Virus genome (UHGV): UHGV-0110022
DNA: 48,769 bases
From: a virus
Direction: 5' to 3' (one strand)
A program made the position numbers and the translations under genes. The notes below the pieces were generated by a model. It was not told the origin of the DNA. It did no database searches and was given only the letters and a program-made list of their open reading frames with translations. Numbering within the stretch: position 1 is the stretch's first letter; every line of letters begins with the position of its first letter. Shown piece by piece: positions 9,894-48,769 of this stretch.

Positions 9894-10646
9894 ATGAACC
9901 TTGAAGCTTTACCAAAATATTACTCCCCAAAATCTCCAAAATTGAGTGATGACGCACCGGCGACAGGCTCGGGTGGTTTAACAATTACAGATGTGATGGC
10001 TGCGCAGGGGATGGTGCAGTCGAAAGCACCGCTTGGGTTTGCCTTATTCCTGGCAAAAGTTGGTGTTCAGGATCCTCAGTTTGCGATTGAAGGTCTGCTC
10101 AATTACGCGATGGCACTGGATAACCCGACATTGAACAAATTGAGTGAAGAAACCCGGCTACAGATCATTCCTTACCTTGTGAATTTTGCCTTTGCTGATT
10201 ATTCCAGGTCTGCGGCAAGTAAGGCTCGCTGTGAGCGTTGTGCTGGTACTGGATTTCATAATGTATTGCGCGAAGTGGTGAAACACTCCAGAAGCGGGGA
10301 GTCTGTTATCAAAGAAGAGTGGGTGAAGGAACTATGTCAGCATTGTCATGGTAAGGGAGAAGTCAGCACAGCGTGCAGAGGGTGTAAGGGTAAAGGTATT
10401 GTCCTGGATGAAAAAAGAACCCGGCTTCATGGCACGCCTGTTTATAAGATTTGTGGGCGTTGCAATGGAAACCGGTTTAGCCGTTTACCAACCACACTGG
10501 CGCGGCTTCATGTCAAGAAGCTGGTACCAGACCTGACGGATTATCAGTGGTACAAAGGATATGCAGATGTCATTGATAAACTGATTACAAAGTGCTGGCA
10601 GGAAGAGGCATATGCTGAGATGCAATTGAGAAAAGTGACGAAATAA
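9894..10646 (+). CDS. late-gene antiterminator Q-like protein (250 aa) with four CxxCxGxG zinc-finger repeats
   Basis: Position immediately upstream of a late-promoter-like region and the lysis cassette; size matches QuuQ-type Q proteins. Confidence 0.55.
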   Translation: MNLEALPKYYSPKSPKLSDDAPATGSGGLTITDVMAAQGMVQSKAPLGFALFLAKVGVQDPQFAIEGLLNYAMALDNPTLNKLSEETRLQIIPYLVNFAFADYSRSAASKARCERCAGTGFHNVLREVVKHSRSGESVIKEEWVKELCQHCHGKGEVSTACRGCKGKGIVLDEKRTRLHGTPVYKICGRCNGNRFSRLPTTLARLHVKKLVPDLTDYQWYKGYADVIDKLITKCWQEEAYAEMQLRKVTK

Positions 10647-10791: not shown

Positions 10792-12045
10792 ATGATGATA
10801 TTGTTTATGCAGGTTGTTACATGTATGGGCGGAAAAATGGATATCTTTGAGTCGTTTAAAGCAGAGAAGCAGAAAAACCATAAAGTTAATATTTACTATA
10901 CTCCTTCGAAACCAGTTTCTTCACCTTCGAATTTGAGAGGGAGGAATGAAGAAATACAGAAGATTTTAGCAGCATTAACAACCCCTGGTCGCCATTGTAT
11001 GATCTATGGTGATCGTGGTATCGGCAAAAGTTCCCTTGCTCTATCTACTCTTGAGGGAGGAAAAGAGCATGAGATTTTACCAGAAATAGTTTTTCAATAT
11101 CGCTGTATAAAAAATACAACGTTTAAAGACATTATTGAAAAAGCTGCTATTTTTATCGATGAAGCCTATAAACATGATAAAGTTGAAACTACTAAGAAGT
11201 ATGGTGCTAGAGCTCGTTTTTTAGATTTATTCAGCTTGGAAGGCTCTAGGGAAGAAAAAATTACTATTGAAAAAGAAGAGTTGACGGCAAATAAAGCTGC
11301 TTCTGTTTTACATCACCTCGAGTCTGTACTTCTTATTGATGAATTTGATGTTGTCAAAGAAGAAGTAAAGCATGAAGTAGCAGAGTTTGTAAAGCAACTT
11401 AGCGATGCTGGAAGTCCATTTAAAGTTTTGATAGTTGGCATAGGTTCTGATGGTGCAGCTTTAATGGCTGGGCATCAGTCAGTAATACGTTGTATGCATG
11501 AAATAAAGTTGCCGCGTGTTGAAGATAAATATCTATCAGAGATAATCGAAAGCGGTGAAAATGGATTGGGTTTGACTTTTTCGCAGCCAATAAAAAAATC
11601 TATTATCGAGATTAGCAGCGGATTCCCTTATTTTACTCATTTATTATGTAAGGAATGTGCAGAAGAGGCTATCCGCCAGTCAAAAACTATTATTGATAGA
11701 AGTATTTTTGAACAAGCCTTGATCGTTGCAGTGAAAAATACTGAAGGTCAATTAAAACGTTGTTACGATCTCGCCGTAACATCTTCTAGAACCGACATGT
11801 ATCCCAAGATCCTTTTATCTGCGGCAAAATTTAAAAATGAACAATTTAGCGTCAAAAATTGGATAGAGCAAATTGCTGAAGATCATGGCTTAGAGCTTAC
11901 ATATGGAAGTATGAATAATTATACTGGTAAGTTAATAAAAGCTGAGCGAGGAGAAATTCTTCAGTTAGTTAGAAGAGGGGTATATAAAATCACGGATCCA
12001 AGAATGCCAAGTTATATTCTTATGTGCCACAATGCGATCCCTTAA
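10792..12045 (+). CDS. stand-alone AAA+-type P-loop ATPase (cargo gene)
   Basis: Walker A GDRGIGKSS, Walker B LLIDEFD; strongly AT-rich relative to flanks; start uncertain (ATG at 10792, 10825 or 10837). Confidence 0.6.
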   Translation: MMILFMQVVTCMGGKMDIFESFKAEKQKNHKVNIYYTPSKPVSSPSNLRGRNEEIQKILAALTTPGRHCMIYGDRGIGKSSLALSTLEGGKEHEILPEIVFQYRCIKNTTFKDIIEKAAIFIDEAYKHDKVETTKKYGARARFLDLFSLEGSREEKITIEKEELTANKAASVLHHLESVLLIDEFDVVKEEVKHEVAEFVKQLSDAGSPFKVLIVGIGSDGAALMAGHQSVIRCMHEIKLPRVEDKYLSEIIESGENGLGLTFSQPIKKSIIEISSGFPYFTHLLCKECAEEAIRQSKTIIDRSIFEQALIVAVKNTEGQLKRCYDLAVTSSRTDMYPKILLSAAKFKNEQFSVKNWIEQIAEDHGLELTYGSMNNYTGKLIKAERGEILQLVRRGVYKITDPRMPSYILMCHNAIP

Positions 12046-22200: not shown

Positions 22201-22371
22201 ATGTTTGTGAAACCTGTTAAAGGGCGGTCAGTGCCTGACCCTGCCCGCGGTGACCTTTTGCCCGCCGAAGGGCGAAATGTTGACGAGAACAACTACTGGC
22301 TGCGCCGTGAAGCAGCGGGTGATATCCGGCGCGTGAATAAAAAGGTGAACACCGATGACGATAAGCTTTAA
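22201..22371 (+). CDS. small protein (56 aa), DUF2635-like, not in the ORF track
   Basis: ATG 22201, translation MFVKPVKGRSVPDPARGDLLPAEGRNVDENNYWLRREAAG...; overlaps sheath start as in Mu-like tail operons. Confidence 0.45.
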   Translation: MFVKPVKGRSVPDPARGDLLPAEGRNVDENNYWLRREAAGDIRRVNKKVNTDDDKL

Positions 22372-23851
22372 CACCATTCCGTCGAATACGCTGGTTCCGC
22401 TGTTTTATGCGGAAATGGATAACTCGGCGGCGAATACTGCACAGGACAGCGGGGCATCGTTGCTGATTGGTCACGCCAATAACGGTGCAGAGATTGTTGC
22501 CAACAGTCTGGTGCTGATGCCGTCGGCAGACTATGCACGCCAGATTTGTGGTGCGGGAAGTCAGCTGGCGCGTATGGTCGAGGCTTATCGCCAGACCGAC
22601 CCGTTTGGCGAGCTGTATGTGATTGCCGTTCCGGAAGCCACAGGCGCGGCGGCAACGGTTACGCTGACGGTGACCGGAGCAGCAACCGAAACCGGCACGG
22701 TGAATGTGTATGTGGGACGTACCCGCGTGCAGGCACCGGTGACCAACGGCGATAACGTCACGACGATTGCCAGCAGTATCAAAGATGCCATCAATGCCGT
22801 TCCGGCCCTTCCGTTTACGGCCTCATCTTCGGCAGGCGTGGTCACACTGACCGCGCGTCATAAGGGGCTTTGCGGGAATGAAATTCCTGTCAGCCTCAAT
22901 TACTACGGCTTTGGTGGGGGCGAAGTGCTGCCAGCGGGTGTACAGATTGCCGTGGCGACGGGGACCGCCGGAACGGGCGCTCCGGTTCTCACCGGTGCGG
23001 TGGCTGCAATGGCGGATGAGCCGTTTGATTATATCGGTCTGCCGTTCAACGACACGGCCTCCGTTAACACGCTGGTGACCGAGATGAACGATACCAGCGG
23101 TCGCTGGAGCTATGCGCGTCAGCTGTATGGTCATGTGTATACGGCAAAGATCGGCACGCTGTCAGAACTGGTGACCGCAGGTGACCAGTTTAACCAGCAG
23201 CACATCACCCTGGCGGGGTACGAAAAAGAGACCCAGACGCCTGCCGACGAGCTGGCGGCAAGCCGTACCGCCCGCGCAGCGGTGTTTATCCGCAACGATC
23301 CGGCACGTCCCACGCAGACCGGTGAGCTGGTGGGTATGCTGCCTGCGCCGAAGGGGAAACGGTTCACGATGACCGAGCAGCAGACCCTGCTGTCTCATGG
23401 CGTGGCAACGGCGTATGTCGAAAGCGGGGTGCTGCGCATTCAGCGTGATGTCACCACGTACAGGAAAAATGCTTACGGGGTTGCGGATAACAGCTACCTC
23501 GACAGCGAGACGCTGCATACCAGTGCGTATGTACTGCGCAAACTGAAATCCGTCATTACCAGTAAGTACGGGCGTCACAAGCTTGCCTGTGACGGTACCC
23601 GCTTTGGTCCCGGTCAGGCGATTGTCACCCCGGCGGTGATCAAAGGGGAACTGCTGGCAACCTACCGTCAGCTCGAGCGTGCGGGGATCGTGGAAAACTA
23701 CGAACTGTTCAAGCAGTACCTGGTTGTGGAGCGTGATGCCAGCGATCCGAACCGCCTGAACACGCTGTTCCCGCCTGACTATGTTAACCAGTTGCGTGTC
23801 TTTGCCGTGGTTAACCAGTTCCGTCTTCAGTATTCAGAGGAGTCTGCATAA
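22355..23851 (+). CDS. contractile tail sheath protein
   Basis: 498 aa at the expected position before the tube gene. Confidence 0.85.
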   Translation: MTISFNTIPSNTLVPLFYAEMDNSAANTAQDSGASLLIGHANNGAEIVANSLVLMPSADYARQICGAGSQLARMVEAYRQTDPFGELYVIAVPEATGAAATVTLTVTGAATETGTVNVYVGRTRVQAPVTNGDNVTTIASSIKDAINAVPALPFTASSSAGVVTLTARHKGLCGNEIPVSLNYYGFGGGEVLPAGVQIAVATGTAGTGAPVLTGAVAAMADEPFDYIGLPFNDTASVNTLVTEMNDTSGRWSYARQLYGHVYTAKIGTLSELVTAGDQFNQQHITLAGYEKETQTPADELAASRTARAAVFIRNDPARPTQTGELVGMLPAPKGKRFTMTEQQTLLSHGVATAYVESGVLRIQRDVTTYRKNAYGVADNSYLDSETLHTSAYVLRKLKSVITSKYGRHKLACDGTRFGPGQAIVTPAVIKGELLATYRQLERAGIVENYELFKQYLVVERDASDPNRLNTLFPPDYVNQLRVFAVVNQFRLQYSEESA

Positions 23852-24207
23852 TGGCCCGTATCGGGGGAACCTGTTATTTCAAAATTGACGGTCAGCAGCT
23901 ATCGCTGACCGGCGGCATTGAGGTGCCCATGAACAGGACGGTCAATGATGACATCATCGGCCTGGACGGTTCAGTGGACCGCAAGGAAACTCACCGTGCG
24001 CCTTATGTCAAAGGGACCTTCAAGGTGCCGAAGAATTTTCCGGTGAGCAAAATCACCTCGTCTGATGAGATGACCATCACTGCCGAGCTGGCGAACGGTC
24101 AGGTCTATGTACTGTCGTCTGCCTGGCTGCACGGCGAAGCGAACCATAATGCCGAAGAAGGCACGGTCGATCTTGAGTTCCACGGTGAAGAAGGGGATTA
24201 CCAGTAA
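23851..24207 (+). CDS. tail tube protein
   Basis: 118 aa immediately after sheath; GAGGA RBS. Confidence 0.8.
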   Translation: MARIGGTCYFKIDGQQLSLTGGIEVPMNRTVNDDIIGLDGSVDRKETHRAPYVKGTFKVPKNFPVSKITSSDEMTITAELANGQVYVLSSAWLHGEANHNAEEGTVDLEFHGEEGDYQ

Positions 24208-24476
24208 TGAAAGAGCTTGAGTTAAAGAAACCGATTACCGCTCATGGCGAGACACTCTCCGTACTGGAGTTTGATGAGCCCACCGGGAAAGATGTCCGCG
24301 AGCTGGGGTATCCCTACCAGATGAATCAGGATGAGTCCGTCAGACTTCTGGCGCATGTGGTATCGAAATATATTGTGCGGCTGGCGAAAGTGCCGCAAAG
24401 CTCTGTCGACCAGATGTCTCCGGCAGACCTGAATGCAGCGGCGTGGCTTGTGGCTGGTTTTTTCCTCCAGGCCTGA
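24207..24476 (+). CDS. tail assembly chaperone (short form)
   Basis: Small acidic protein directly upstream of tape measure; TAATG coupling. Confidence 0.65.
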   Translation: MKELELKKPITAHGETLSVLEFDEPTGKDVRELGYPYQMNQDESVRLLAHVVSKYIVRLAKVPQSSVDQMSPADLNAAAWLVAGFFLQA

Positions 24477-24625
24477 CGGCTGAATACCTTACTGATCGCT
24501 TCTTTGATTGCGCCAGCTACTGGCGCATTAATCCCTTCGAATTGCTGAATATGCCGATCAGTGAAATTCCCTTGCTGGTCAGTCAGGCAAACAGGATAGA
24601 GCAGGAGAAACGCACACATGGCTGA
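24207..24625 (+). CDS. tail assembly chaperone, long form via programmed -1 frameshift at T_TTT_TTC (24458-24464)
   Basis: Slippery heptamer in the 0 frame 12 nt before the stop; the -1 frame continues open to 24625, overlapping the tape-measure start. Confidence 0.5.
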
Positions 24626-26450
24626 ATTTGAGCTTAAGGCGTTGATCACCGGTGTCGACAGGCTTTCTCCCGCGCTGTCGAAAATGCAAAAGAAAATCCG
24701 GGGATTTAAACGCCAGGCGGAAGAAGCGTCACAGGGTGGGCTGGCGCTTGGTGGCGGACTGGCAGCGGGTCTGACGCTTTCCCTGAAATCTTATGCCGAT
24801 CAGGAAAACGCCGCCACCGGGCTGAAAGTCGCCATGATGGATGCGAATGGCGAGGTTGGAAAGAGCTTTCAGGACATCAATAAACTGGCTATTGGCCTGG
24901 GTAACCAGCTACCCGGTACAACGGCTGATTTCCAGAACATGATGCAGATGCTGGTGCGTCAGGGGATCCCGGCAGAAAACATTCTTGGCGGTGTGGGTAA
25001 AGCGACAGCTTATCTTGCGGTACAACTGAAAAAAACACCGGAAGCGGCTGCTGAGTTTGCTGCAAAGATGCAGGATGCTACCGGAACGGCGTCAGAAGAC
25101 ATGATGGGGCTGTTCGACACTATCCAGAAGGCGTTTTATCTGGGCGTTGACGATACCAACATGTTGTCCTTCTTCACTAAAACCAGTTCTGTTCTGAAGA
25201 TGGTGAACAAGGACGGTCTTCAGGCTGCACAGAGCCTTGCCCCCATCAGCGTCATGATGGATCAGATGGGGATGAACGGGGAGTCGGCAGGTAATGCCCT
25301 GCGAAAAGTTATCCAGTCCGGATTAAGCGTTAAGAAAATCAGGGACGTCAATAAAATCATGGCCCGCCAGAAACTCGGGGTACAGCTCGATTTTACTGAC
25401 GGCAAAGGAAGTTTTGGCGGTCTTGATAACATGTTCAGGCAACTGGCAAAGCTGCGAAAACTGACCGACGTTAAGCGAACAGGTGTACTTAAGGCAATAT
25501 TTGGTGATGATGCCGAAACCCTTCAGGTGGTTAATGCACTAATCGATAAAGGAAAGGATGGCTACGATCAGATCCAGCAGAAGATGAATAAACAGGCCAG
25601 CCTGAATAAACGTGTTCAGGCCCAGCTTGGTACGCTGTCCAACCTGTGGGAGGCAATGACGGGGACCGCAACTAACGGCCTTGCGGCTATTGGCGGCGCA
25701 TTTTCTGGTGACGCCAAAAATATCACGCAATGGCTGGGGGAGTTGGGGGAGAAATTCACGAAGTTTGCGGATGAAAATCCCCGGGTTATTCGCGGCGTCG
25801 TCGGGCTTGCTGCCGGTCTTGCGATTCTGAAACTGGGATTGATGGGCGTGGGCAGTGCCATCAGTATCGTCAGCAGGATCATGTCGATGACGCCGATTGG
25901 CATGATTGCGACGGCGATTGCCCTGGCTGCGGGATTAATTATCACTAACTGGGATGTTGTCGGACCTTATTTTAAGAAACTCTGGGAAACCATTAGTCCT
26001 TATTTTGAGGCTGGCTGGGAACTTCTGAAGAAGGTTTTTGCCTGGTCGCCGCTGGGGATGGTGATCAATAACTGGGGACCGGTTGTTAAGTGGTTTCAGG
26101 ATATGTGGGATAAGCTGAAGCCGATTATTGAATGGTTTACCGACAGTTCCGGTGACACGGTCGATGCCATTAACTCGGCGCAGTGGGGCGCGGGTGCTTA
26201 TGATGCTTATGGGACGGGAATACCGGCACGGGGATACACTCCTTATCCGGCGGTGGATCCGGCTCAGGCAAACAACGCCTCCGATGCCACAGGCTCGAAT
26301 CCCTTCATGATTAATAAAGCTACCGCGCCAAAAGTTGATGGTGAGATCAAGGTATCATTTATAAATATGCCACCAGATATGCGGGTTACGGAAACACGCT
26401 CCAGTGGCATTGATATAAATCACGATGTTGGCTATACCCGATTTTGGTAG
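24618..26450 (+). CDS. tail tape measure protein
   Basis: 610 aa, helical N-terminal region, Gly/hydrophobic central segment; AGGAG RBS. Confidence 0.85.
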   Translation: MAEFELKALITGVDRLSPALSKMQKKIRGFKRQAEEASQGGLALGGGLAAGLTLSLKSYADQENAATGLKVAMMDANGEVGKSFQDINKLAIGLGNQLPGTTADFQNMMQMLVRQGIPAENILGGVGKATAYLAVQLKKTPEAAAEFAAKMQDATGTASEDMMGLFDTIQKAFYLGVDDTNMLSFFTKTSSVLKMVNKDGLQAAQSLAPISVMMDQMGMNGESAGNALRKVIQSGLSVKKIRDVNKIMARQKLGVQLDFTDGKGSFGGLDNMFRQLAKLRKLTDVKRTGVLKAIFGDDAETLQVVNALIDKGKDGYDQIQQKMNKQASLNKRVQAQLGTLSNLWEAMTGTATNGLAAIGGAFSGDAKNITQWLGELGEKFTKFADENPRVIRGVVGLAAGLAILKLGLMGVGSAISIVSRIMSMTPIGMIATAIALAAGLIITNWDVVGPYFKKLWETISPYFEAGWELLKKVFAWSPLGMVINNWGPVVKWFQDMWDKLKPIIEWFTDSSGDTVDAINSAQWGAGAYDAYGTGIPARGYTPYPAVDPAQANNASDATGSNPFMINKATAPKVDGEIKVSFINMPPDMRVTETRSSGIDINHDVGYTRFW

Positions 26451-26541: not shown

Positions 26542-27072
26542 ATGAAAGGCTATATCACAGCAAGTGTAATTCTTGGAGCAGCGGCTATTTTTTCATCTCT
26601 CATAATCTCTGGCAACATCTCCTTTAAAGATGAACATATTATTCAGTTATCTGGAGGAGCCATAAAACTTGGTGATGTTTATAAAGAAAATAAATTGATA
26701 AGTGCAAAGATTATTTTTCCAGATAATCAGGGTGAACAGATTCTTGTTGTCGACGGCAATCCTGAAAACTTTAAGGAGGATTTTCAGGAGAAATTAAATA
26801 AAGTAATAAAAACTTTAAATGCGTCAAAGAAAAAAGATGAAGAGAAAGTTAGCCTGGATAATTTAAGTGTTATTGAAGAGTCTAAACTAGAGCTCGTTTC
26901 TGCGGTGCGTTACTCTGCTCAGTATGTTCCTATGTTTACTCTGACGCTGGACAAAAAAGAAATTACCATGCCTAAAAATACGGTAATATTTCCATTTGCC
27001 AGCGATGAAACAGCTAAGTATTTAAATGAACAACAGCAAAAGTATAAAGATTCGTTGTTTCTGACTCGCTAA
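26542..27072 (+). CDS. membrane-anchored hypothetical protein (176 aa), AT-rich cargo gene within the tail operon
   Basis: N-terminal hydrophobic anchor (ITASVILGAAAIFSSLIISG); AT-rich; own promoter and terminator. Confidence 0.6.
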   Translation: MKGYITASVILGAAAIFSSLIISGNISFKDEHIIQLSGGAIKLGDVYKENKLISAKIIFPDNQGEQILVVDGNPENFKEDFQEKLNKVIKTLNASKKKDEEKVSLDNLSVIEESKLELVSAVRYSAQYVPMFTLTLDKKEITMPKNTVIFPFASDETAKYLNEQQQKYKDSLFLTR

Positions 27073-28462: not shown

Positions 28463-29538
28463 ACGACAATGTCACGCTACGGGTAAATGGCCGGGAGTGG
28501 AATGGCTGGACATCGGTGCGCATCGGTGCCGGTATTGAACGGCTGGCGCGGGATTTCAGCGTGGAGATCACCCGCCAGTGGCCGGGAGATGAGGGTATCA
28601 CCACGCTTCAGCCGCGCATTAAAAATGGTTCAAAAGTGGAAGTGCTGATTGGTGATGAGCTGGTGATCACCGGCTGGGTGGAGGCGACCCCCGTTCGTTA
28701 CGATGCCCGTTCGGTCAGCACCGGTATTGCCGGACGTAGTCTGACTGCTGACCTGATTGACTGTGCAGCCGAACCGACACAGTTTAACGGACGATCGCTG
28801 GTACAGATTGCGCAGGCGCTTGCTGCGCCTTTCGGCATTGAGGTGGTGAACAGCGATGCGCCGTCGGGTGTTATTCCGGATGTCCAGCCTGATCACGGTG
28901 AAACGGTGATCGAGGTGATCAACAAAATACTCGGTCAGCAGCAGGCGCTGGCTTATGACGACCCGCACGGCAGGCTGGTGATTGGTGGTATTGGCTCAAC
29001 GCGGGCACATACCGCGCTGGTACTTGGGGAAAACATCCTTTCCTGTGATACGGAGAAGAGTATCCGGGAGCGGTTTTCAGTTTACCAGGTGGCGGGGCAG
29101 CGTGCCGGAAACGACGATGATTTCGGTGAGGCCACCACCACCGCGCTGCGGGCCCGCACAGAGGATGCATTTATTGCCCGTTACCGTCCGATGTATATCA
29201 GGCAGACAGGGCAGGCTACGGGGGCAGGCTGTATTGCGCGTGCTGACTTTGAAGCCCGACAACGGGCGGCGCGGACGGATGAAACCACCTATGTGGTGCA
29301 GGGCTGGCGACAGGGTAACGGTACGCTGTGGCAGCCCAACCAGCGGGTGATTGTCTTCGATCCGGTCTGTGGTTTCGACAATACCGAACTGCTTGTCTCG
29401 GAAGTCACGTTTACTCAGGACCAGAATGGCACCCTGACGGAAATCCGTGTCGGCCCACCTGATGCTTATCTGCCTGAACCCGAAGCCCCCGGCGCGCGGA
29501 AAAAGAAAAAAGCCAGAGTACAGGAGGACCCGTTCTGA
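28459..29538 (+). CDS. baseplate hub protein (Mu gpP-like)
   Basis: Position and size in Mu-like baseplate cluster. Confidence 0.65.
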   Translation: MNDNVTLRVNGREWNGWTSVRIGAGIERLARDFSVEITRQWPGDEGITTLQPRIKNGSKVEVLIGDELVITGWVEATPVRYDARSVSTGIAGRSLTADLIDCAAEPTQFNGRSLVQIAQALAAPFGIEVVNSDAPSGVIPDVQPDHGETVIEVINKILGQQQALAYDDPHGRLVIGGIGSTRAHTALVLGENILSCDTEKSIRERFSVYQVAGQRAGNDDDFGEATTTALRARTEDAFIARYRPMYIRQTGQATGAGCIARADFEARQRAARTDETTYVVQGWRQGNGTLWQPNQRVIVFDPVCGFDNTELLVSEVTFTQDQNGTLTEIRVGPPDAYLPEPEAPGARKKKKARVQEDPF

Positions 29539-30086
29539 TGAAGGCGATTGAAACCATACAGCGACAACTCCTCGGCCTGATTGGGCGGGCGGTGGTGAAA
29601 AGCATCAGTGCCGCCACGAAATGTCAGACCGTGGATGTGTCCCTGATTGCCGGTGAACCCAAAGCCGGGGTTGAACATCTTGAACCCTACGGTTTTACCG
29701 CAAGGGCAAACAGCGGTGCGGAAGCGGTGGTGTTGTTTCCGGATGGTGACCGTTCTCATGCGGTGGTTGTTACGGTGTCGGACCGGCGCTACCGCCTGAA
29801 AGGGCTGCAGACGGGTGAGGTGGCTGTCTATGACGATCAGGGGCAGTCCGTGACGCTGACCCGGGCGGGGATCGTGGTGGACGGTGCAGGTAAAACGATC
29901 ACGTTTCGCAATGCGCCTAAGGCTCGTTTTGAAATGGACCTGGAAGTGACCGGACAGGTGAAAGACCTGTGCGACTCCAGCGGCACCACCATGTCAGCGA
30001 TGCGGCTTGCCTATAACGGGCATCGTCACAGAGAGAACGGTCAGGGCAGTAACACCGACAAACCTGATAAAGCGATGGAGGCATGA
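29538..30086 (+). CDS. baseplate assembly protein V (spike)
   Basis: gpV-like 182-aa protein; ATGA overlap. Confidence 0.75.
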   Translation: MKAIETIQRQLLGLIGRAVVKSISAATKCQTVDVSLIAGEPKAGVEHLEPYGFTARANSGAEAVVLFPDGDRSHAVVVTVSDRRYRLKGLQTGEVAVYDDQGQSVTLTRAGIVVDGAGKTITFRNAPKARFEMDLEVTGQVKDLCDSSGTTMSAMRLAYNGHRHRENGQGSNTDKPDKAMEA

Positions 30087-40464: not shown

Positions 40465-41014
40465 CTATACAAAGAGATTCTAAAAGCGATCTCTAAAAGA
40501 GAGCTTTTAGAAGATCTTGTTAAAGATTCGCTTTGCTGGCGCGTATCGCCTGGCAAGTGACCTGATTCGCCTTTGGGGGCTACTCGGTCAGCCGCTCACG
40601 ACGCAGCGTAGCGCATCTGTCTGTGATTGTGCCAGGGCTTCGCCCTCGTGAAACGAGGCACAGAAGCTATGCGCCGTGTGCGCAATGTCTTTCAGGATAA
40701 CTTCTGCCTGTCTTCCATGCTCCGCATTCATCCATGCAAAGTTAGCCCACGGCTAAGGATTCACTGGTCGCTGATGGCTCCAGTTCATCCAGCCTCAATC
40801 CAATACCATCACCTACTATCCTGATAACTAACGTTATCCCTCAGTAGTTGTGCTATTGGTTTCGGGAGTAAGTGCCAGAGGGCGGCGGTAACGCAAACGG
40901 AACGCCCCAGACGCGCTGAGAGCGAATTTGAGAGGATAGGGAGGGGATTGCAACTCTCAGGCTTTCAAACCTGTTAGAAAGCGATAGACCGCGTTTTATG
41001 ATGACATGAATGAG

Positions 41015-41094
41015 TTGATCACAACGTGGAAATGCGCTATAATTTGAAAGGGATTGAAATAAGTGTTGACATTTAAATCATTTCATGTTAAAGT
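41015..41094 (+). promoter_or_regulatory. tandem sigma70-like promoters
   Basis: TTGATC-17 nt-TATAAT (41015-41043) and TTGACA-17 nt-TAAAGT (41066-41094). Confidence 0.45.
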
Positions 41095-41189
41095 AAATGA
41101 TGTAGGGTGATGAAAGCATTCATCCCGTCCTCATCTCAGGCATCCAGCCTAACGCAAACAATCCAACTTACACCGCACTATCAGGCAAC

Positions 41190-41438
41190 GTGATTAACGT
41201 TCTCCCTGGATGGTGTTTCTGTGTTTCTAACGCAAGGAGAACCAAAATTAAGTATTTTAATCCAGAACTTGTCTTCGAGGCTTTAAAGGCCGGAAGCCAG
41301 ACGCGAAATGCAATAAACAGCCAGCGAGCAGCCGCACAACGGCAAGGATATTTCGAACACGCTGAAAGATTGCGTAAAGGAATCGAACTTTACGATCAAT
41401 GGAAAGCTGAACAGGCTGAAACCACCACCAACGAATAA
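41190..41438 (+). CDS. hypothetical protein (start uncertain)
   Basis: ORF with internal AAGGAG at 41233 but no in-frame ATG after it. Confidence 0.3.
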   Translation: MINVLPGWCFCVSNARRTKIKYFNPELVFEALKAGSQTRNAINSQRAAAQRQGYFEHAERLRKGIELYDQWKAEQAETTTNE

Positions 41439-41456
41439 ACCAGAAGGAGAAACCAA

Positions 41457-41633
41457 ATGAGCGAAATCCAGAAGAAGAAACCAGCCGGAACATTCGTAAA
41501 ACTGCCGGATGAAGTGTTTAGTACTTTGTTCAAAGAGGCGCGAGCGAGAGGCGTAACAGTGCAGGAGATGTTAATTGACGCTGCAACCACACTTTCCACA
41601 TCAATTAAGAACGGAGAACGTTCTACCAAATAA
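41457..41633 (+). CDS. small DNA-binding-like protein (58 aa, possible ribbon-helix-helix), not in the ORF track
   Basis: AGAAGGAG RBS 7 nt before ATG; translation MSEIQKKKPAGTFVKLPDEVFSTLFKEARARGVTVQEMLIDAATTL... Confidence 0.4.
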   Translation: MSEIQKKKPAGTFVKLPDEVFSTLFKEARARGVTVQEMLIDAATTLSTSIKNGERSTK

Positions 41634-41647
41634 GGATACACCCTAAC

Positions 41648-42388
41648 ATGACTGACATTATAAACAGTAAGGCTTTTAGTTTCACCAACACCGAAGACGC
41701 ATTTAACGAATGCACCAGGATCACCAATCTTAAAACAGGCGTAACAGAGTCCCTGTCTCCTGCTGATAAGCAGTTTTACGTCAGAATGCGCCATCGTTAT
41801 TATCGCTTTGCGATAGAGTTGGGCGGTACTTATTACGATGACATTGATCAACTTGGTGCAAGTATTGGTGTCAGCTCGGCTACGGCAACACGTATTGTTG
41901 CAAAGTTGAAGAAAATCGGACTGATCGCCAGTAATAAGCCAAAGCGCTCTAACCAATGGACTATAACGCCACTCACGCCGCAAAACTTCACCTTTGAACG
42001 TGATCGTAATGCGATGGAACGTGATTCCGCGCCGGAATGGGTAGATTGTCTGAAACATCCCGTGTTTGGCAAAGCTAAAGAAGACGTAGCGCCAGAGGAA
42101 GAAAAACAGCAGTCAGTGCCAGAAGAGGCCAAAGCAGATCCGAAGCCGGAGAAGCCAAAGAAAATGCCTACGAAGAAACCCGCCTCCATTCCAGCTAAAG
42201 ATATTAAGATAGAGCCAGTTAATTTAAACTTTCTTGAGGGTTATCGGGATGAATGGGAGAATCCTGAAAAGAATCTACCAGTTTCACAACATCCGAAAAT
42301 CAGATGGCTACTTATTAACGGATACCTGGACACAGAGAAGAATCCAAAACTTAAACCAATCTACGAGGAAATAGAACATTTATGCTGA
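41648..42388 (+). CDS. HTH-containing protein (246 aa), possible replication/regulatory protein
   Basis: Winged-helix-like segment IGVSSATATRIVAKLKKIGLI; Lys/Pro/Glu-rich linker. Confidence 0.45.
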   Translation: MTDIINSKAFSFTNTEDAFNECTRITNLKTGVTESLSPADKQFYVRMRHRYYRFAIELGGTYYDDIDQLGASIGVSSATATRIVAKLKKIGLIASNKPKRSNQWTITPLTPQNFTFERDRNAMERDSAPEWVDCLKHPVFGKAKEDVAPEEEKQQSVPEEAKADPKPEKPKKMPTKKPASIPAKDIKIEPVNLNFLEGYRDEWENPEKNLPVSQHPKIRWLLINGYLDTEKNPKLKPIYEEIEHLC

Positions 42389-42843
42389 AAACGGTTATAC
42401 CCAAACAATACAACGAACGTGATCTTAACATCATCCATCTTGCCAGTTTATTAAATCCAGAAGTTGAAAGAGGTGTTGCATTCGAACAAGCGCAAGAACT
42501 TGTAGATGTTTACGCTGAGCGAGGTGAATCAAGTTACGCTAATGCTCTTGTTACGCTATTCAATGCAGCGATGAAGCCACCGAAAGAGATAGAATGTAAA
42601 ATGACATCCCCACATCTTCACGATAAGAATCTGTCTCCTTCGGAACGTCTGGTATTAATGCACCTCGAATCACTGCCATCATTAACAAATGTGAAACAGG
42701 AGTCAATAGCGATAGTGTTGGGGATAAGTGTGGCAACTGTATCCAGTGCGATTCGCAAGCTCCGCCGCAATGATTATCTAACTACTACGTTAATCAAACC
42801 TGGTCGCGGTAAAGGATGCGACATTACACTTACGACTAAATAA
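42382..42843 (+). CDS. winged-helix transcriptional regulator-like protein (153 aa)
   Basis: HTH-like segment IAIVLGISVATVSSAIRKLRRNDYL. Confidence 0.4.
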   Translation: MLKTVIPKQYNERDLNIIHLASLLNPEVERGVAFEQAQELVDVYAERGESSYANALVTLFNAAMKPPKEIECKMTSPHLHDKNLSPSERLVLMHLESLPSLTNVKQESIAIVLGISVATVSSAIRKLRRNDYLTTTLIKPGRGKGCDITLTTK

Positions 42844-42947
42844 CAACAATCGGGAAACTTTTATGATTACTGCTTTATGGTGGTTCACCATATTCTATGG
42901 CGTTTACGTTATAACCAGACAAGGAGTTTCCCCTCTACGAGGAATGA

Positions 42948-43331
42948 ATGGGACGAAAAGAACGAAGTAACCTTGTTAGAATCGAAAAAGCCACACGCAT
43001 CAGCAAACGTAAATACACCTCTTCTCTACAAGACCTCGCACGAGAGTCTATTCCTGGTGAGATGGTGACAACTATTAAAGAATATCCCGCAGTAGTACCA
43101 AATGGATTAGAGTTTGAACTATTGCAGGATGTTCTATCGTCAACGGATAACGTTTATTACAAACCACGACGCAGACGCGAATATATTATAGATAGTAGCC
43201 ATCTCAAGAAATGGCAAATAGCAGGATTTGAACATTACGCCGATTATATTGGGTATTGTCAAACCTGGGGGCTATCCCAGCACACACAAGAGTTTGATAT
43301 TCTCTTTGACGACAAGGAAAACAATGAATAA
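42948..43331 (+). CDS. hypothetical protein (start uncertain)
   Basis: ORF only. Confidence 0.25.
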   Translation: MGRKERSNLVRIEKATRISKRKYTSSLQDLARESIPGEMVTTIKEYPAVVPNGLEFELLQDVLSSTDNVYYKPRRRREYIIDSSHLKKWQIAGFEHYADYIGYCQTWGLSQHTQEFDILFDDKENNE

Positions 43332-43662
43332 TAAAACTATGGACACAGTGAACACCCTAATTAACTCTTTCCACGACAACTGGCATTTACCAACCTTACA
43401 GCTTGTTAATGCAGCGTGGCGTGAGAGAACGCCCTCCGCGCTTCTGGAAGCGGTGCAATACACTGAACAGGCAATCACTGCCCTTGAACATCTGCAAACG
43501 TCTGTAGCTCGTTTGGTGCAGCGTGACGGCAGTTCGATCACACCAGAAGAAGCGTGGCGTGTAGCTAATGACCTTGAGGAGCTTGCTTGCTCTCTGCAAT
43601 ACATCACCGTTGAACTCGGAGAGCTTTCCATCCAGATCGCGGAAGAATGCGCCATAACATAA
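43324..43662 (+). CDS. hypothetical protein (112 aa)
   Basis: AAGGAAA RBS before ATG 43324. Confidence 0.35.
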   Translation: MNNKTMDTVNTLINSFHDNWHLPTLQLVNAAWRERTPSALLEAVQYTEQAITALEHLQTSVARLVQRDGSSITPEEAWRVANDLEELACSLQYITVELGELSIQIAEECAIT

Positions 43663-43677
43663 AAGTTACTAAATGTC

Positions 43678-43706
43678 TTGACATTATGTGCTATATGTGT
43701 CATAAT
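43678..43706 (+). promoter_or_regulatory. near-consensus sigma70 promoter
   Basis: TTGACA(43678-43683)-17 nt-CATAAT(43701-43706). Confidence 0.55.
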
Positions 43707-44236
43707 GAGTTATAGGGTAAGTATTCGAATCACTTCACCCTCGTATGTCAATACGCACTCCTTGAGAATGCCGTTCCCATAGCGGCATTCTCTCCCTCTG
43801 AATGCTATTTCTGAAAGTGTTGGTTCTTTGTCTTGTTTGTTCCGAAGGAATGCGCGGGATGTAATATCTCGTTGTGTTGGTATTGCATCGCAATCACCGC
43901 GCATCTCCGACTTTTTCAGAAAGGGCATTCGCTCTTTGCTCATTCATTCCGTTAGGATGAATGTAGTCAGACTGAATAAACGCCGTCAGCGGTAGTTACG
44001 TTCAGGCTGGCAATCTCTTATTACTATTCCAGTGGTGATATTGAGATTCCATTCCCACTTCTCGCCATGACAGAAGGGCTTCTGTTTTGAAGTGGGAGCA
44101 ATGACGGGCGATCCTACTTCTGTTATTCGTAACAGTTGCGCCCTTCATTTTTTCAAGAAGCCATTCTTTAACATCATAATCCTCCGAAACGAAAATGATT
44201 TTAACAGAATGCTTTCTAACAAGGGCATATTCTCCA

Positions 44237-44258
44237 GGGGCTTAATCGCCCCTTTTTA
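44237..44258 (+). terminator. rho-independent terminator at the end of a structured leader
   Basis: GGGGC-ttaatc-GCCCC followed by TTTTT. Confidence 0.55.
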
Positions 44259-44328
44259 ACAATCTGCATGTAACACTTCCGTTATTAATGGAAGGATAAA
44301 CGCAGTTATAACGCGAAGGAACAACACA

Positions 44329-44544
44329 ATGTTCTTAATAAACAATCGCGACCGAATCCTAAAATACAAATCCGAAGTGATTCAAGTTAATCCTGAGTTA
44401 ATAGCTAAAGTGGCTGAAATGGCAGGATGTACCGTTGAAGAAATAGAAAAAGCTGTAGACCAGTATTTCCCTTCTGAGGACACACCTCAACTTAGTATGC
44501 AGGAACGGATCGCAATCAAATCCAAGGAAATCAAACAACAATGA
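44329..44544 (+). CDS. hypothetical protein (71 aa)
   Basis: AAGGAA RBS; first gene of the capsid-like cluster. Confidence 0.4.
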   Translation: MFLINNRDRILKYKSEVIQVNPELIAKVAEMAGCTVEEIEKAVDQYFPSEDTPQLSMQERIAIKSKEIKQQ

Positions 44545-44900
44545 TTGTAGACCTAACCGAACTTTTCCCAATTCGTAAGAGTTTCACTGACGTATTGAGC
44601 TACGCCACTGATTCTTTTGCAGTCGTAGAAGGCCGTGTTTTCGACCTGCCAGCAGATATTGAATGCGGCGATGTTATCGGCGCTGATGGCGCTCTATACA
44701 CCTCCGGCGATGATGCCTTTGTGGTGGTAAGTGATTTCGTGAGTGCTGGCGACGGTAAAACCGTGAATGTCCTACGTGCGCCTAATGTTGGTAGCTTCGT
44801 AGCACTGAAAGCCGACAACCTGCACGCAGCTAATCACGCCGCAGCTATCACCACGCTCGAATCCAAAGGGTTCGTATGCCGTCCATTCTTCACCTCTTAA
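44541..44900 (+). CDS. head decoration protein-like (D-like, putative)
   Basis: 119-aa Gly/Ala/Val-rich protein immediately upstream of an E-like capsid gene; ATGA overlap. Confidence 0.4.
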   Translation: MIVDLTELFPIRKSFTDVLSYATDSFAVVEGRVFDLPADIECGDVIGADGALYTSGDDAFVVVSDFVSAGDGKTVNVLRAPNVGSFVALKADNLHAANHAAAITTLESKGFVCRPFFTS

Positions 44901-44916
44901 TCAAGGAAGATAAATA

Positions 44917-45948
44917 ATGAGTAAAATCGCAATTGGGCGTGAGATGGTCGATTTAGCGCCAATCTTCCAGGCTCTGCCGGAACGTAACTATCTTATGAAT
45001 GCCCTCGACCTATTCGACGGGGTAGGTGTTCAGAATCCGAAAGTGGTGGTGACACAGCTTCTGGATGATAACTACAGCCTGTTTAACACCCCGCAGAGCC
45101 GTTATTCATCAAACCACGACACTACCGCGCGTCAGAATGGCAAAGAATACCTTATCGAGATTCCTTGGTTTGCAAGGGAAGATGAGTTTAAACCTGTAGA
45201 CGTACAAGGCCGCAGAGTGCAGGGAACGGACTACGAGCAAACCGTTACCGACCTGTACACCGAATACACTGGCAAACATAAGATTGCTTATCTGCGTACC
45301 CGTGAGTCTTACCTGGCCCGTGCTCTGTTCAAAGGTGAAGTTTATACGCCTGCAACTGATGACCTACTGATCTCTTATGCTGAACTGTTCGGTGTGGTGC
45401 CAATGACAGCCAGCGTGAGCACAGCGACAGCGGCACAGGATTTTGATGCGATCTTAGACAAAGTTCAGGCTGCCGCAGGTGGATTGGCTGGACAGATTGA
45501 ACGAGTGATCGTATTCGCTAAACCTGCTGCATTTAGCCAGATTCGCTTCTCTGACAGTATGTCTAAGGCGTTCCAGTATGTAGCGCCATATGACGACCGT
45601 AACCTATTCTACCAGCGTCACGAGCTTCTCCCTGGTGTTAGTACGTTTAGCCTACCTGGTGCGCCTATCGACATTGTTAAAGTGACAGATCCGCTGATCC
45701 TTGCACAGATGCCAGATGATGCTGACATGGTGGCGGTTCCGGTGTTCAGTAAAGGCACAAATGCTTATCAGAACATCTACGGCGCTGCCTCTGGTAACTT
45801 TGCGCTGATCGATGCTGCACCTGCTGAATACTACTCTTGGGGCTACCTGAGCGAGCGCGGCGATGCTTACCACGTTATGCACGAAAACAGCGCATTACCA
45901 GTGAACCATGCGTTAGGTATGCAGGTGAAGATCACCATCACTGCTTAA
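44917..45948 (+). CDS. major capsid protein, E-like family (putative)
   Basis: 343 aa, lambda gpE-like size and composition; follows decoration-like gene. Confidence 0.5.
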   Translation: MSKIAIGREMVDLAPIFQALPERNYLMNALDLFDGVGVQNPKVVVTQLLDDNYSLFNTPQSRYSSNHDTTARQNGKEYLIEIPWFAREDEFKPVDVQGRRVQGTDYEQTVTDLYTEYTGKHKIAYLRTRESYLARALFKGEVYTPATDDLLISYAELFGVVPMTASVSTATAAQDFDAILDKVQAAAGGLAGQIERVIVFAKPAAFSQIRFSDSMSKAFQYVAPYDDRNLFYQRHELLPGVSTFSLPGAPIDIVKVTDPLILAQMPDDADMVAVPVFSKGTNAYQNIYGAASGNFALIDAAPAEYYSWGYLSERGDAYHVMHENSALPVNHALGMQVKITITA

Positions 45949-46067
45949 TGAGCAAGCGGGAGCCTGACCCGCTGGAAATAATCAGGCTATTGAATATGGC
46001 GTGTGAACGTTGGGAACATCTCCCCAGTGTTCCCGCCCTTTTTTATTTCCAGAATGAGGAAAGATAA

Positions 46068-46265
46068 ATGCAAGTGATTGTAAAAAGCGCGGGGCTTCAC
46101 CTCGCCGTAAATGCTGAAACAGCAGAAGAGTTATTAAATCTGGCGGGAGTGTGTCGTGTGCTTGAAATAGATCACGGTCATCTACGTCAGTTATTACATC
46201 GTGGGCGTAGTGTATCAGATGCACTTAATTATCTGGTGAGTAAAAAAGGCGGTGGCGATGCTTGA
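46068..46265 (+). CDS. hypothetical protein (65 aa)
   Basis: GAGGAAA RBS. Confidence 0.35.
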   Translation: MQVIVKSAGLHLAVNAETAEELLNLAGVCRVLEIDHGHLRQLLHRGRSVSDALNYLVSKKGGGDA

Positions 46266-48102: not shown

Positions 48103-48253
48103 TTGTGATGTAAATCACATGGGAATACCACATATTGCGCTCGCTTTGTAAAGGATGTGTATATGTGGTGTTTTTCTTTGACGCCGCTTCGTTTGTCCCT
48201 TACCCTTAAAAGGGTAAGCAGTTCACTCTTTATCTCCAAGATGAGGTGTTTTT

Positions 48254-48382
48254 ATGGCTAAGAAAACAGTAGTTCGTTCTGCGATAACTGGTCAGTTTGT
48301 TAAGCCCATTGAAGCTAAACGACATCCTGATACTACGATAACTGAAACTATCAAAATCCCTACCAAGAAAGCTAAGAAATAA
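48254..48382 (+). CDS. small basic protein (42 aa), not in the ORF track
   Basis: GAGGTG RBS 5 nt before ATG; translation MAKKTVVRSAITGQFVKPIEAKRHPDTTITETIKIPTKKAKK. Confidence 0.3.
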   Translation: MAKKTVVRSAITGQFVKPIEAKRHPDTTITETIKIPTKKAKK

Positions 48383-48440
48383 AAATATCTCAAAGTGCCC
48401 ATAGCGGCGCTTATTCATTTGAATGTCTGGAGAGAATTAA

Positions 48441-48719
48441 ATGGCAAACAACTTGTTTGTAACCTATGACTTGATCAAAACCAAAGATTATGCTGCTGTG
48501 CATGATGCTATCAAGGCCTTGGGCAACTGGGCAAAAGTTACCGAGTCGAACTGGTACGTAAATTCGAATTATTCGGTTGAAGAGGCTGCCAGAAAAGTTC
48601 GGGCAGCGATGGATAGCGATGATAAGTTGATTGTTGTTGATGCTAAGAATAACTCTGCTTCCTGGTATAACCTTTTGCCAGCAGTTGAGAATCAAATTCA
48701 AAACGAATGGAATAAATGA
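48441..48719 (+). CDS. hypothetical protein (92 aa)
   Basis: ORF followed by hairpin GGGGGAT..ATCCCCCC. Confidence 0.4.
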   Translation: MANNLFVTYDLIKTKDYAAVHDAIKALGNWAKVTESNWYVNSNYSVEEAARKVRAAMDSDDKLIVVDAKNNSASWYNLLPAVENQIQNEWNK

Positions 48720-48769
48720 GTTATCGGGGGATGGATAATCCCCCCTTAATTACTGGACGTTGTAATTTA

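What the first reader, a model, noticed from the sequence alone, without database searches (positions are those of the whole stretch)
24458..24625. Programmed -1 ribosomal frameshift in the tail assembly chaperone
Seen: slippery heptamer T_TTT_TTC in the zero frame of 24207-24476, 12 nt before its stop; the -1 frame stays open for 54 more codons to 24625, overlapping the tape-measure start. Established: lambda G/GT-type chaperone frameshifting is conserved in tailed phages.
Basis: partly seen in the sequence, partly recalled or inferred. Interest (0 to 1): 0.45.

Follow-up and report, generated by a model that had tools for sequence, protein, structure and literature searches.

The report
Tail chaperone -1 frameshift site
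This is the ordinary, well-known programmed -1 ribosomal frameshift that lets a prophage make a short and a long tail-assembly chaperone from one start codon; it is real and strongly conserved, but public records of this phage lineage do not annotate it.

Summary
T_TTT_TTC (24458-24464) lies in phase in an 89-aa ORF (24207-24476). The -1 frame stays open for 53 codons to TGA 24623-24625, which overlaps the tape-measure ATG (24618) by 8 nt. The predicted fusion is 139 aa.

The ORF is a Pfam PF10109 tail assembly chaperone, the P2 gpE / Mu gp41 family. It sits between the tail tube and tape-measure genes of an SfV/SfI-like prophage of E. coli. The heptamer falls at the same profile position as the annotated -1 site of P2 E/E+E' (TTTTTTG).

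Among 169 distinct relatives, 165 keep NNT-TTT-TTY, even where the preceding residue changes. Wobble-position variation switches from the 0 frame to the -1 frame at the heptamer. Most relatives have no start codon for the extension. So the extension is a selected coding region that can be reached only by shifting frame.

No stimulatory structure follows the heptamer directly, as reported for P2. The extension shows no detectable sequence similarity to P2 E'. A conserved 8-bp hairpin starts 44 nt downstream (P2 has one at about +50) and is unexplained.

Verdict: supported, already known in kind, low interest. It is an annotation gap rather than a discovery.

The parts
24207..24476 (+). Short product: 89-aa tail assembly chaperone (gpE-like), 0 frame. 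Its ATG overlaps the tube gene's TAA by 1 nt.
   Evidence: Pfam PF10109 Phage_TAC_7 at 60.3 bits (cut-off 25), residues 4-86 on profile 2-78/79; phrog_166 'tail protein' E 7e-24. RefSeq names it 'phage tail assembly protein'.
24458..24464 (+). Slippery heptamer T_TTT_TTC in X_XXY_YYZ phase; both slipping tRNAs are tRNA-Phe.
   Evidence: NNT-TTT-TTY is kept in 165 of 169 distinct relatives, whereas other Gly codons in the same ORFs are GGT only 25% of the time and other Phe codons TTT 53%. U_UU.U_UU.C is among the efficient E. coli -1 motifs (PMC4066793).
24474..24476 (+). 0-frame stop codon TGA, which ends the short product 9 nt after the heptamer.
   Evidence: The distance to the stop varies between clades (9, 27-30 or 63 nt).
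24464..24625 (+). -1 frame extension: 53 codons (PPGLTAEYLTDRFFDCASYWRINPFELLNMPISEIPLLVSQANRIEQEKRTHG) plus TGA. With residues 1-86 of the short product it gives the 139-aa fusion.
   Evidence: phrog_32181 E 6.5e-41. Third-position variation moves to the -1 frame here. 84 distinct homologous extension peptides share the pattern [FY]-x-x-A-x-[FYW]-W...A-x-R-I. There is no conserved start codon.
24509..24527 (+). Conserved 8-bp hairpin TGCGCCAG-CTA-CTGGCGCA inside the extension, starting 44 nt 3' of the heptamer. Its role is unknown, and whether it belongs to the frameshift cassette is not established.
   Evidence: -12.9 kcal/mol; local z -3.3. It is invariant in the clade, including 4 synonymous stem positions, while 6 neighbouring synonymous positions vary. 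It gives the deepest dip in the folding z-score profile.
24603..24607 (+). Shine-Dalgarno AGGAG of the tape-measure gene, lying inside the extension's coding sequence.
   Evidence: Read directly from the sequence; 10 nt upstream of ATG 24618.
24618..26450 (+). Tail tape-measure protein gene (610 aa); its start overlaps the end of the extension by 8 nt.
   Evidence: PF10145 at 94 bits; phrog_28 and phrog_17727 tape measure.
23851..24207 (+). Tail tube gene immediately upstream (context).
   Evidence: PF10618 Tail_tube E 2e-33.
22355..23851 (+). Tail sheath gene (context: contractile, Mu-type tail module).
   Evidence: PF04984, PF17482 and PF17481.

Best explanation
This is a programmed -1 ribosomal frameshift of the P2 E/E+E' type. 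Most ribosomes that translate the chaperone gene from ATG 24207 read through T_TTT_TTC and stop at TGA 24474, giving the 89-aa chaperone. A minority slip back one base while two tRNA-Phe sit on UUU-UUC. They re-pair on UUU-UUU, carry on in the -1 frame through 53 more codons, and stop at TGA 24623-25 on top of the tape-measure start. This gives a 139-aa fusion with the same N-terminus and a new C-terminal domain. By analogy with lambda G/GT and P2 E/E+E', the shared N-terminal part would coat the tape-measure protein and the extension would recruit the tube protein. The fixed low ratio of long to short product would be what tail assembly needs, and neither protein would end up in the virion. 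Shown here: the signal, its homology and position, and selection on both the heptamer and the -1 frame. Inferred: that the slip is ribosomal, how efficient it is, and what the two products do.
For: The short ORF is a PF10109 tail assembly chaperone between the tube and tape-measure genes. P2 gpE is in the same Pfam family. Its annotated -1 site GG-TTTTTT-G maps to the same profile position (78/79) as GG-TTTTTT-C here. P2 E+E' also overlaps the T gene start by 8 nt. The heptamer is kept in all 20 genome and phage relatives down to 40% protein identity, including a GC-rich Derxia genome. It is kept in 165 of 169 distinct sequences overall. The base before TTT stays T even when the residue changes (GGT, AAT, AGT, CGT), so the constraint is on the nucleotides. 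Mean diversity by codon position is 0.17/0.10/0.52 upstream of the heptamer. Downstream the maximum moves to the third position of the -1 frame. The extension is a conserved 50-60 aa domain. At least 13 of 21 sequences examined have no ATG, GTG or TTG in the -1 ORF ahead of the conserved part of the extension. U_UU.U_UU.C is a proven efficient -1 motif in E. coli: 0.12% alone, 0.9% with the IS911 stimulator and 7.6% with the IS3 stimulator (PMC4066793). Conserved G/GT-type frameshifting, with higher efficiency in P2, is reviewed in PMC5009743.
Against: No experiment on this element was available. No stimulatory structure lies 5-9 nt after the heptamer (z about 0), and there is no conserved upstream Shine-Dalgarno-like element. 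In reporters the bare heptamer gives only about 0.1%, so a biologically useful level needs some context effect that I could not identify. The extension has no detectable sequence similarity to P2 E': no PF06528 hit at E<=10, and a profile of 83 extensions scores 3.8 bits against P2 E'. A T6 run could in principle also allow RNA polymerase slippage, which would give the same protein.
Confidence: 0.88

Rival explanations
1. Transcriptional slippage. RNA polymerase adds one extra U at the T6 run, so a fraction of mRNAs carry U7 and encode the same 139-aa protein by standard translation.
For: The slip site is a homopolymer in every member of this family (T6 or T7). The product would be identical. 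The bare heptamer is a weak ribosomal shifter in reporters (0.12%). The review PMC5009743 treats transcriptional slippage as an alternative route to frameshifted products.
Against: From my own knowledge, not tested here: productive slippage by E. coli RNA polymerase generally needs runs of about 8-9 or more, and 6 is short. No hairpin lies directly upstream of the run to destabilise the RNA-DNA hybrid. The P2 site is described as translational frameshifting in the literature (PMC3091744 and PMC5009743).
Confidence: 0.07
2. The extension is a separate small gene, translated from its own start (GTG 24443), as annotated in phage record ON470584 ('hypothetical protein').
For: A mechanical 60-aa ORF 24443-24625 exists. 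One phage record and a few genome records call it as a gene.
Against: There is no Shine-Dalgarno sequence before GTG 24443 (one search shows the upstream bases). That start is missing in most relatives, and L014, L022 and L023 have no start codon anywhere in the -1 ORF. In several relatives the -1 frame opens only 15-30 nt before the heptamer.
Confidence: 0.02
3. Chance overlap: the heptamer and the open -1 frame are coincidental and only the 89-aa protein is made.
For: An open -1 frame past a stop is common in this window (47 of 133 ORFs). One spurious antisense ORF shows the same pattern.
Against: Purifying selection acts on the -1 frame. The heptamer is conserved at nucleotide level across four clades and down to 40% identity. 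The extension forms a conserved protein family.
Confidence: 0.01

Closest known systems
Bacteriophage P2 gpE / gpE+E' (FETUD tail operon; Christie et al. 2002, cited through PMC3091744 and PMC5009743)
   Same: Same Pfam family for the short product (PF10109). Same position between the tube and tape-measure genes. A T6 slippery run at the same profile position (GG TTTTTT G in P2, GG TTTTTT C here). Similar sizes (91 and 142 aa in P2, 89 and 139 aa here). The same 8-nt overlap of the extension's stop with the tape-measure start. No structure directly after the site. A stable hairpin about 45-50 nt downstream in both.
   Different: The last base of the heptamer differs (C here, G in P2). The 0-frame stop is 9 nt after the heptamer here and 18 nt in P2. 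The extension is a different sequence family (phrog_32181, no Pfam) with no significant similarity to P2 E' (PF06528). The surrounding tail module is Mu-like rather than P2-like.
Lambda gpG / gpGT tail assembly chaperones (Levin 1993; Xu, Hendrix and Duda 2004, 2013, 2014; reviewed in PMC5009743)
   Same: The same logic: two products from one start through a low-level -1 shift near the end of the gene that precedes the tape measure. In lambda the shared part binds the tape measure and the extension binds the tube protein.
   Different: No sequence relationship was detected (only PF10109 hit). Lambda's slippery sequence is G_GGA_AAG and involves different tRNAs. Lambda is a siphovirus, whereas this is a contractile tail.
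Phage Mu gp41 and its frameshift extension
   Same: The flanking genes here are Mu-like: sheath L, tube M, tape measure gp42, DNA-circulation gp43 and baseplate gp44 homologues. The Pfam family name lists Mu gp41.
   Different: Mu is reported to use -2 frameshifting (PMC5009743). In the Mu record the open frame after gp41 is the +1/-2 frame. Here the +1 frame closes after 2 codons and the -1 frame carries the extension.

Membership tests
P2 gpE/gpE+E'-type tail assembly chaperone with -1 frameshift (Pfam PF10109 Phage_TAC_7) | The short product matches the family profile above the curated cut-off. | tested here: met
   60.3 bits against a cut-off of 25, residues 4-86 on profile 2-78/79. P2 gpE+E' hits the same profile at 47.8 bits.
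P2 gpE/gpE+E'-type tail assembly chaperone with -1 frameshift (Pfam PF10109 Phage_TAC_7) | The gene lies between the tail tube gene and the tape-measure gene. | tested here: met
   Tube 23851-24207 (PF10618), chaperone 24207-24476, tape measure 24618-26450 (PF10145).
P2 gpE/gpE+E'-type tail assembly chaperone with -1 frameshift (Pfam PF10109 Phage_TAC_7) | An in-phase slippery T-run at the C-terminal end of the chaperone domain, conserved among relatives. | tested here: met
   T_TTT_TTC at 24458-24464, aligned to profile position 78/79 like the annotated P2 site. 165 of 169 distinct relatives keep NNT TTT TTY. 13 of 13 P2-like phages keep T6G or T6C.
P2 gpE/gpE+E'-type tail assembly chaperone with -1 frameshift (Pfam PF10109 Phage_TAC_7) | A -1 frame extension of about 50-60 codons with no start of its own, under purifying selection, ending at the tape-measure start. 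| tested here: met
   53 codons here; median 53 among relatives. The periodicity switches frame. No conserved start codon. 8-nt overlap with ATG 24618.
P2 gpE/gpE+E'-type tail assembly chaperone with -1 frameshift (Pfam PF10109 Phage_TAC_7) | The extension is homologous to P2 E' (Pfam PF06528 Phage_P2_GpE). | tested here: not met
   No PF06528 hit at E<=10 for the extension, whereas P2 E' scores 76 bits. BLASTP of the fusion against P2 E+E' gives E 0.56. An HMM of 83 extensions scores 3.8 bits against P2 E', within the range of shuffled controls. Only sequence was compared; no fold comparison was possible.
P2 gpE/gpE+E'-type tail assembly chaperone with -1 frameshift (Pfam PF10109 Phage_TAC_7) | Two protein products in a fixed ratio, both required for tail assembly and absent from virions. 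| not testable with these tools
   This needs protein detection and genetics.
Lambda gpG/gpGT family | Sequence membership in the lambda gpG family. | tested here: not met
   The Pfam scan at E<=0.01 returned only PF10109. This is a functional analogue only.
Lambda gpG/gpGT family | Two products from one start by a -1 shift, upstream of the tape-measure gene. | tested here: met
   The architecture is as described. The products themselves were not observed.
Mu gp41-type -2 frameshift | The extension is encoded in the +1/-2 frame. | tested here: not met
   The +1 frame closes 2 codons after the stop, and the extension is in the -1 frame. In Mu the +1 frame is the open one.
Canonical bacterial -1 frameshift cassette (heptamer plus a nearby stimulator, as in dnaX or IS3/IS911) | A slippery X_XXY_YYZ heptamer of proven efficiency. 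| tested here: met
   U_UU.U_UU.C is among the efficient E. coli motifs.
Canonical bacterial -1 frameshift cassette (heptamer plus a nearby stimulator, as in dnaX or IS3/IS911) | A stimulatory hairpin or pseudoknot 5-9 nt downstream, or a Shine-Dalgarno-like element 10-14 nt upstream. | tested here: not met
   The first 42-63 nt after the heptamer fold no better than shuffles (z 0.05 and -0.3; clade mean z +0.2). The consensus fold finds only a 3-bp helix there. No conserved Shine-Dalgarno-like sequence lies upstream. The only conserved structure starts at +44.

The most novel reading that the evidence does not exclude
The stable hairpin that starts about 44-50 nt downstream of the slip site may be a previously undescribed distal part of the frameshift cassette in gpE-type chaperone genes. 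It is kept through synonymous-site conservation in the SfV-like lineage, and P2-like phages have a hairpin of unrelated sequence at the same place. It might set the long-to-short product ratio, for example by slowing ribosomes that have already shifted so that the next ribosome dwells at the T-run. That would explain how a heptamer worth about 0.1% in reporters could reach a useful level without any nearby stimulator.
Probability: 0.1. Interest if true: 0.45.

Novelty: already known. Interest (0 to 1): 0.15.

Why it matters
The practical value is for annotation. The same gene pair occurs in about 1,090 of 5,426 complete E. coli genomes and in phages SfV, SfI, SfII and relatives. In every record I opened, the long product is either missing or called as an orphan 'hypothetical protein'. 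Knowing that a 139-aa fusion is made matters for proteomics of induced prophages, for engineering tail or tailocin modules, and for gene callers. For frameshifting biology it adds a well-sampled case of a T6 site that works with no nearby stimulator. It also raises one open question, the distal hairpin. It does not change the accepted picture of tail assembly chaperones.

Tried and rejected
- Rfam scan of the whole window: no family matched.
- tRNA scan: none found.
- PDB sequence search with the fusion protein: only spurious weak matches to light-harvesting proteins.
- AlphaFold of the 89-aa chaperone with a 13-sequence alignment: mean pLDDT 53.5, too poor for any fold search, so none was run.
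- Homology of the extension to P2 E': BLASTP, Pfam and an HMM against shuffled controls were all non-significant.
- Database search with the extension alone: only 10 near-identical 'hypothetical protein' entries, none with a Pfam domain.
- The three 137-139-aa 'fused' database proteins P0001-P0003 are singletons with several local frame errors. They are assembly artefacts, not natural fusions.
- Proximal RNA structure, and a long-range stem enclosing the hairpin: not significant and not conserved.
- Terminator-like hairpin before the T-run, which might favour polymerase slippage: none on the + strand.
- Literature: Christie 2002 and Xu 2004 are not held. No open-access paper describing the site in SfV-like phages turned up.
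- The first scan of viral contigs, and the scan with P2 E+E', returned only near-identical copies. The useful diversity came from the genome scan and from queries with divergent relatives.

Full report
**1. Observation**

- The ORF 24207-24476 (89 aa) ends ...GCT GGT TTT TTC CTC CAG GCC TGA.
- T_TTT_TTC occupies 24458-24464 in X_XXY_YYZ phase.
- The 0-frame stop is at 24474-76.
- The -1 frame is open from 24335 to TGA 24623-25.
- A -1 slip on the heptamer gives MKEL...VAGFF-PPGLTAEY...RTHG, which is 139 aa and 15.8 kDa. The short product is 9.9 kDa.
- The extension's stop overlaps the tape-measure ATG (24618) in ATGGCTGA, an 8-nt overlap.

On its own the pattern is not rare. In this window 47 of 133 mechanical ORFs have a -1 frame open for at least 50 codons past their stop. 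One spurious antisense ORF (29466-29759) also combines an in-phase TTTTTTC with a long -1 frame. The case therefore rests on what the gene is and on comparative data.

**2. What the gene is**

The short ORF matches Pfam PF10109, 'Phage tail assembly chaperone proteins, E, or 41 or 14', at 60 bits against a cut-off of 25. It also matches phrog_166.

It follows the tail sheath (22355-23851) and tail tube (23851-24207) genes. It precedes the tape-measure gene (24618-26450), a DNA-circulation gene and Mu gpP-like baseplate genes.

The -1 extension matches its own PHROG family, phrog_32181, with unknown function (E 6.5e-41).

The region is 98-99% identical to Shigella/E. coli phages SfI, SfV and SfII. 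It occurs in 1,086 of 5,426 complete E. coli genomes.

None of the records I opened annotates a frameshift.
- RefSeq and the SfV record leave 24477-24617 empty.
- So do the Pantoea AH07 and Salmonella F1055 records.
- ON470584 calls the extension a separate 'hypothetical protein'.

**3. Comparative evidence**

I collected 20 loci from one-genome-per-species contigs (100% down to 40% protein identity, including Derxia). Annotated phages and four scans of viral contigs added more. These gave 169 distinct versions of the region.

- **Heptamer.** 164 of the 169 have an in-phase TTTTTT[C/T]. At codon level 165 of 169 read NNT-TTT-TTY. The residue before Phe-Phe varies (Gly, Asn, Ser, Arg) but its third base stays T. 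Elsewhere in the same ORFs only 25% of Gly codons are GGT and 53% of Phe codons are TTT. The constraint is therefore on the nucleotides, not on the protein.
- **Reading frame.** In 13 sequences that align without gaps, mean diversity by codon position is 0.17/0.10/0.52 upstream of the heptamer. Downstream the maximum moves to the third position of the -1 frame (0.41), and it switches in the 30-nt block that follows the heptamer.
- **Extension.** It is a conserved domain of 50-60 residues, with 84 distinct peptides sharing the pattern [FY]-x-x-A-x-[FYW]-W...A-x-R-I.
- **No own start.** At least 13 of the 21 sequences examined have no ATG, GTG or TTG in the -1 ORF ahead of the conserved part. 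Three have none at all. In several the -1 frame opens only 15-30 nt before the heptamer.

The extension is thus a selected coding sequence that can be reached only by changing frame at the heptamer.

**4. Mechanism**

Both codons of the heptamer are read by tRNA-Phe, and both can re-pair one base back (UUU-UUC to UUU-UUU).

Sharma et al. 2014 (PMC4066793) place U_UU.U_UU.C among the efficient E. coli motifs. They measured 0.12% without a stimulator, 0.89% with the IS911 stimulator and 7.6% with the IS3 pseudoknot. For P2's UUUUUUG the values are 0.12%, 0.25% and 0.77%.

I found no stimulator near the site here.
- The 42-63 nt after the heptamer fold no better than shuffles.
- The consensus fold finds only a 3-bp helix there.
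- No upstream Shine-Dalgarno-like sequence is conserved.

The same absence is reported for P2 and its Burkholderia relatives (PMC3091744). Even so, P2 is said to shift 2-3 times more efficiently than lambda (PMC5009743). The source of the efficiency is therefore unexplained for the whole family, not only for this element.

The roles of the two products are inferred from lambda (PMC5009743). The shared part would bind the tape measure, the extension would recruit the tube protein, and the ratio would be critical.

**5. Comparison with known systems**

P2 gpE also hits PF10109, and its annotated -1 site aligns to profile position 78/79, exactly as here. The local sequence is GG-TTTTTT-G in P2 and GG-TTTTTT-C here. 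The products are 91 and 142 aa in P2 and 89 and 139 aa here. P2 E+E' overlaps the T start by the same 8 nt. Thirteen diverse P2-like phages keep T6G or T6C.

One defining feature is not met. The extension is not detectably related to P2 E' (PF06528) by BLASTP, Pfam or HMM.

Lambda G/GT is a functional analogue only.

Mu shares the flanking tail genes but is reported to use a -2 shift. Its open frame after gp41 is indeed +1/-2, whereas here the +1 frame closes after two codons. So this is a Mu-type tail module that carries a P2-type chaperone and frameshift cassette.

**6. An unexplained extra: a distal hairpin**

Inside the extension, 44 nt after the heptamer, lies a perfect 8-bp hairpin, TGCGCCAG-CTA-CTGGCGCA (24509-24527). 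Its energy is -12.9 kcal/mol and its local z-score is -3.3.

- In the SfV-like clade the four synonymous third positions inside the stem never vary, while all six neighbouring synonymous positions do.
- In a sister clade, relatives that lost the 3' arm (Arg to Lys, Asn, Glu or Gln) also changed the 5'-arm codons.
- No compensatory double changes were seen.
- P2 has an unrelated and stronger two-part hairpin starting about 50 nt after its heptamer. Its stem synonymous positions are conserved in 186, ENT4 and a Klebsiella phage.
- A sliding folding z-score profile from -225 to +195 has its deepest dip at +30/+45 in the SfV-like clade, its sister clade and the P2-like clade. Two other clades, one of them ST64B-like, show no dip.

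The spacing is wrong for a classical stimulator, and it does not fit a simple two-ribosome queue either. I record the hairpin as real in the sequence and of unknown purpose.

**7. Rival explanations**

- **RNA-polymerase slippage at T6.** It would give the same protein and cannot be excluded from sequence alone. The run is short, however, and no destabilising upstream hairpin exists.
- **Independent initiation at GTG 24443.** Excluded by the lack of a ribosome-binding site and by non-conservation of any start codon.
- **Chance.** Excluded by the selection signals.

**8. Verdict**

It is a routine member of the conserved tail-assembly-chaperone frameshift, closest to P2 E/E+E'. Its value lies in annotation. 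The only open point of wider interest is the distal hairpin and, more generally, what makes T6 sites in this family efficient.

**9. Dead ends**

- Structure prediction of the chaperone was of low confidence (pLDDT 53.5), so no fold search was run.
- PDB sequence hits were spurious.
- Rfam and tRNA scans found nothing.
- The key primary papers, Christie 2002 and Xu 2004, are not held in the library.
- No paper naming this site in SfV-like phages was found.

Noticed in passing
window 24509-24527 (compare L106 736-778 in phage P2): A conserved 8-bp hairpin inside the -1 extension, 44 nt after the slippery heptamer. Its synonymous stem positions never vary. P2 has an unrelated, stronger hairpin at about +50. 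Its function is unknown.
   Followed up: partly
window 10792-12045 (+): A low-GC (about 36%) 417-aa ORF directly after the antiterminator Q gene (9894-10646). It has STAND/AAA NTPase matches (PF20703 nSTAND1, PF13401) and hits phrog_6841. It looks like a moron and may be a defence gene.
   Followed up: partly
window 26542-27072 (+): A low-GC (about 42%) 176-aa ORF with a hydrophobic N-terminus, wedged between the tape-measure and DNA-circulation genes. It has no Pfam hit and matches phrog_5485 (unknown function). RefSeq calls it hypothetical.
   Followed up: partly
window ~41000-48769: A second phage-like region after the SfV-like prophage, with a major capsid protein E homologue (PF03864) at 44917-45948 and a 616-aa ORF with no Pfam hit at 46252-48102.
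   Followed up: no
L044, L075, L081 (IMG/VR relatives, 100% chaperone protein identity): Three close relatives carry GGG instead of GGT before the T-run, and L044 also has TTT-TTT-CTC. This breaks the strict heptamer while keeping the protein. They may be decaying prophages or lower-efficiency variants.
   Followed up: no
L042 (IMG/VR relative): The extension reading frame diverges after ...NPFELLN and runs on for 508 codons. This looks like a rearrangement or insertion within the extension.
   Followed up: no
P0001-P0003 (protein database hits): Single-contig 'fused' 137-139-aa proteins look like natural E+E'-type fusions but carry several local frame errors around the T-run. They are most likely homopolymer assembly errors.
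   Followed up: yes
L001 (NZ_CP021844.1), between RS06540 and RS06550: The RefSeq locus tags skip RS06545 exactly where the extension lies, and no feature is listed there.
   Followed up: no
window 29466-29759 (-): A spurious antisense ORF inside the baseplate gene also has an in-phase TTTTTTC followed by a 142-codon open -1 frame. It is a useful reminder that the bare pattern can arise by chance.
   Followed up: yes
L107 (phage Mu) 3553-4132: After Mu gp41 the open frame toward the tape-measure gene is the +1/-2 frame. This fits the reported -2 frameshift and contrasts with the -1 geometry in this Mu-like tail module.
   Followed up: partly
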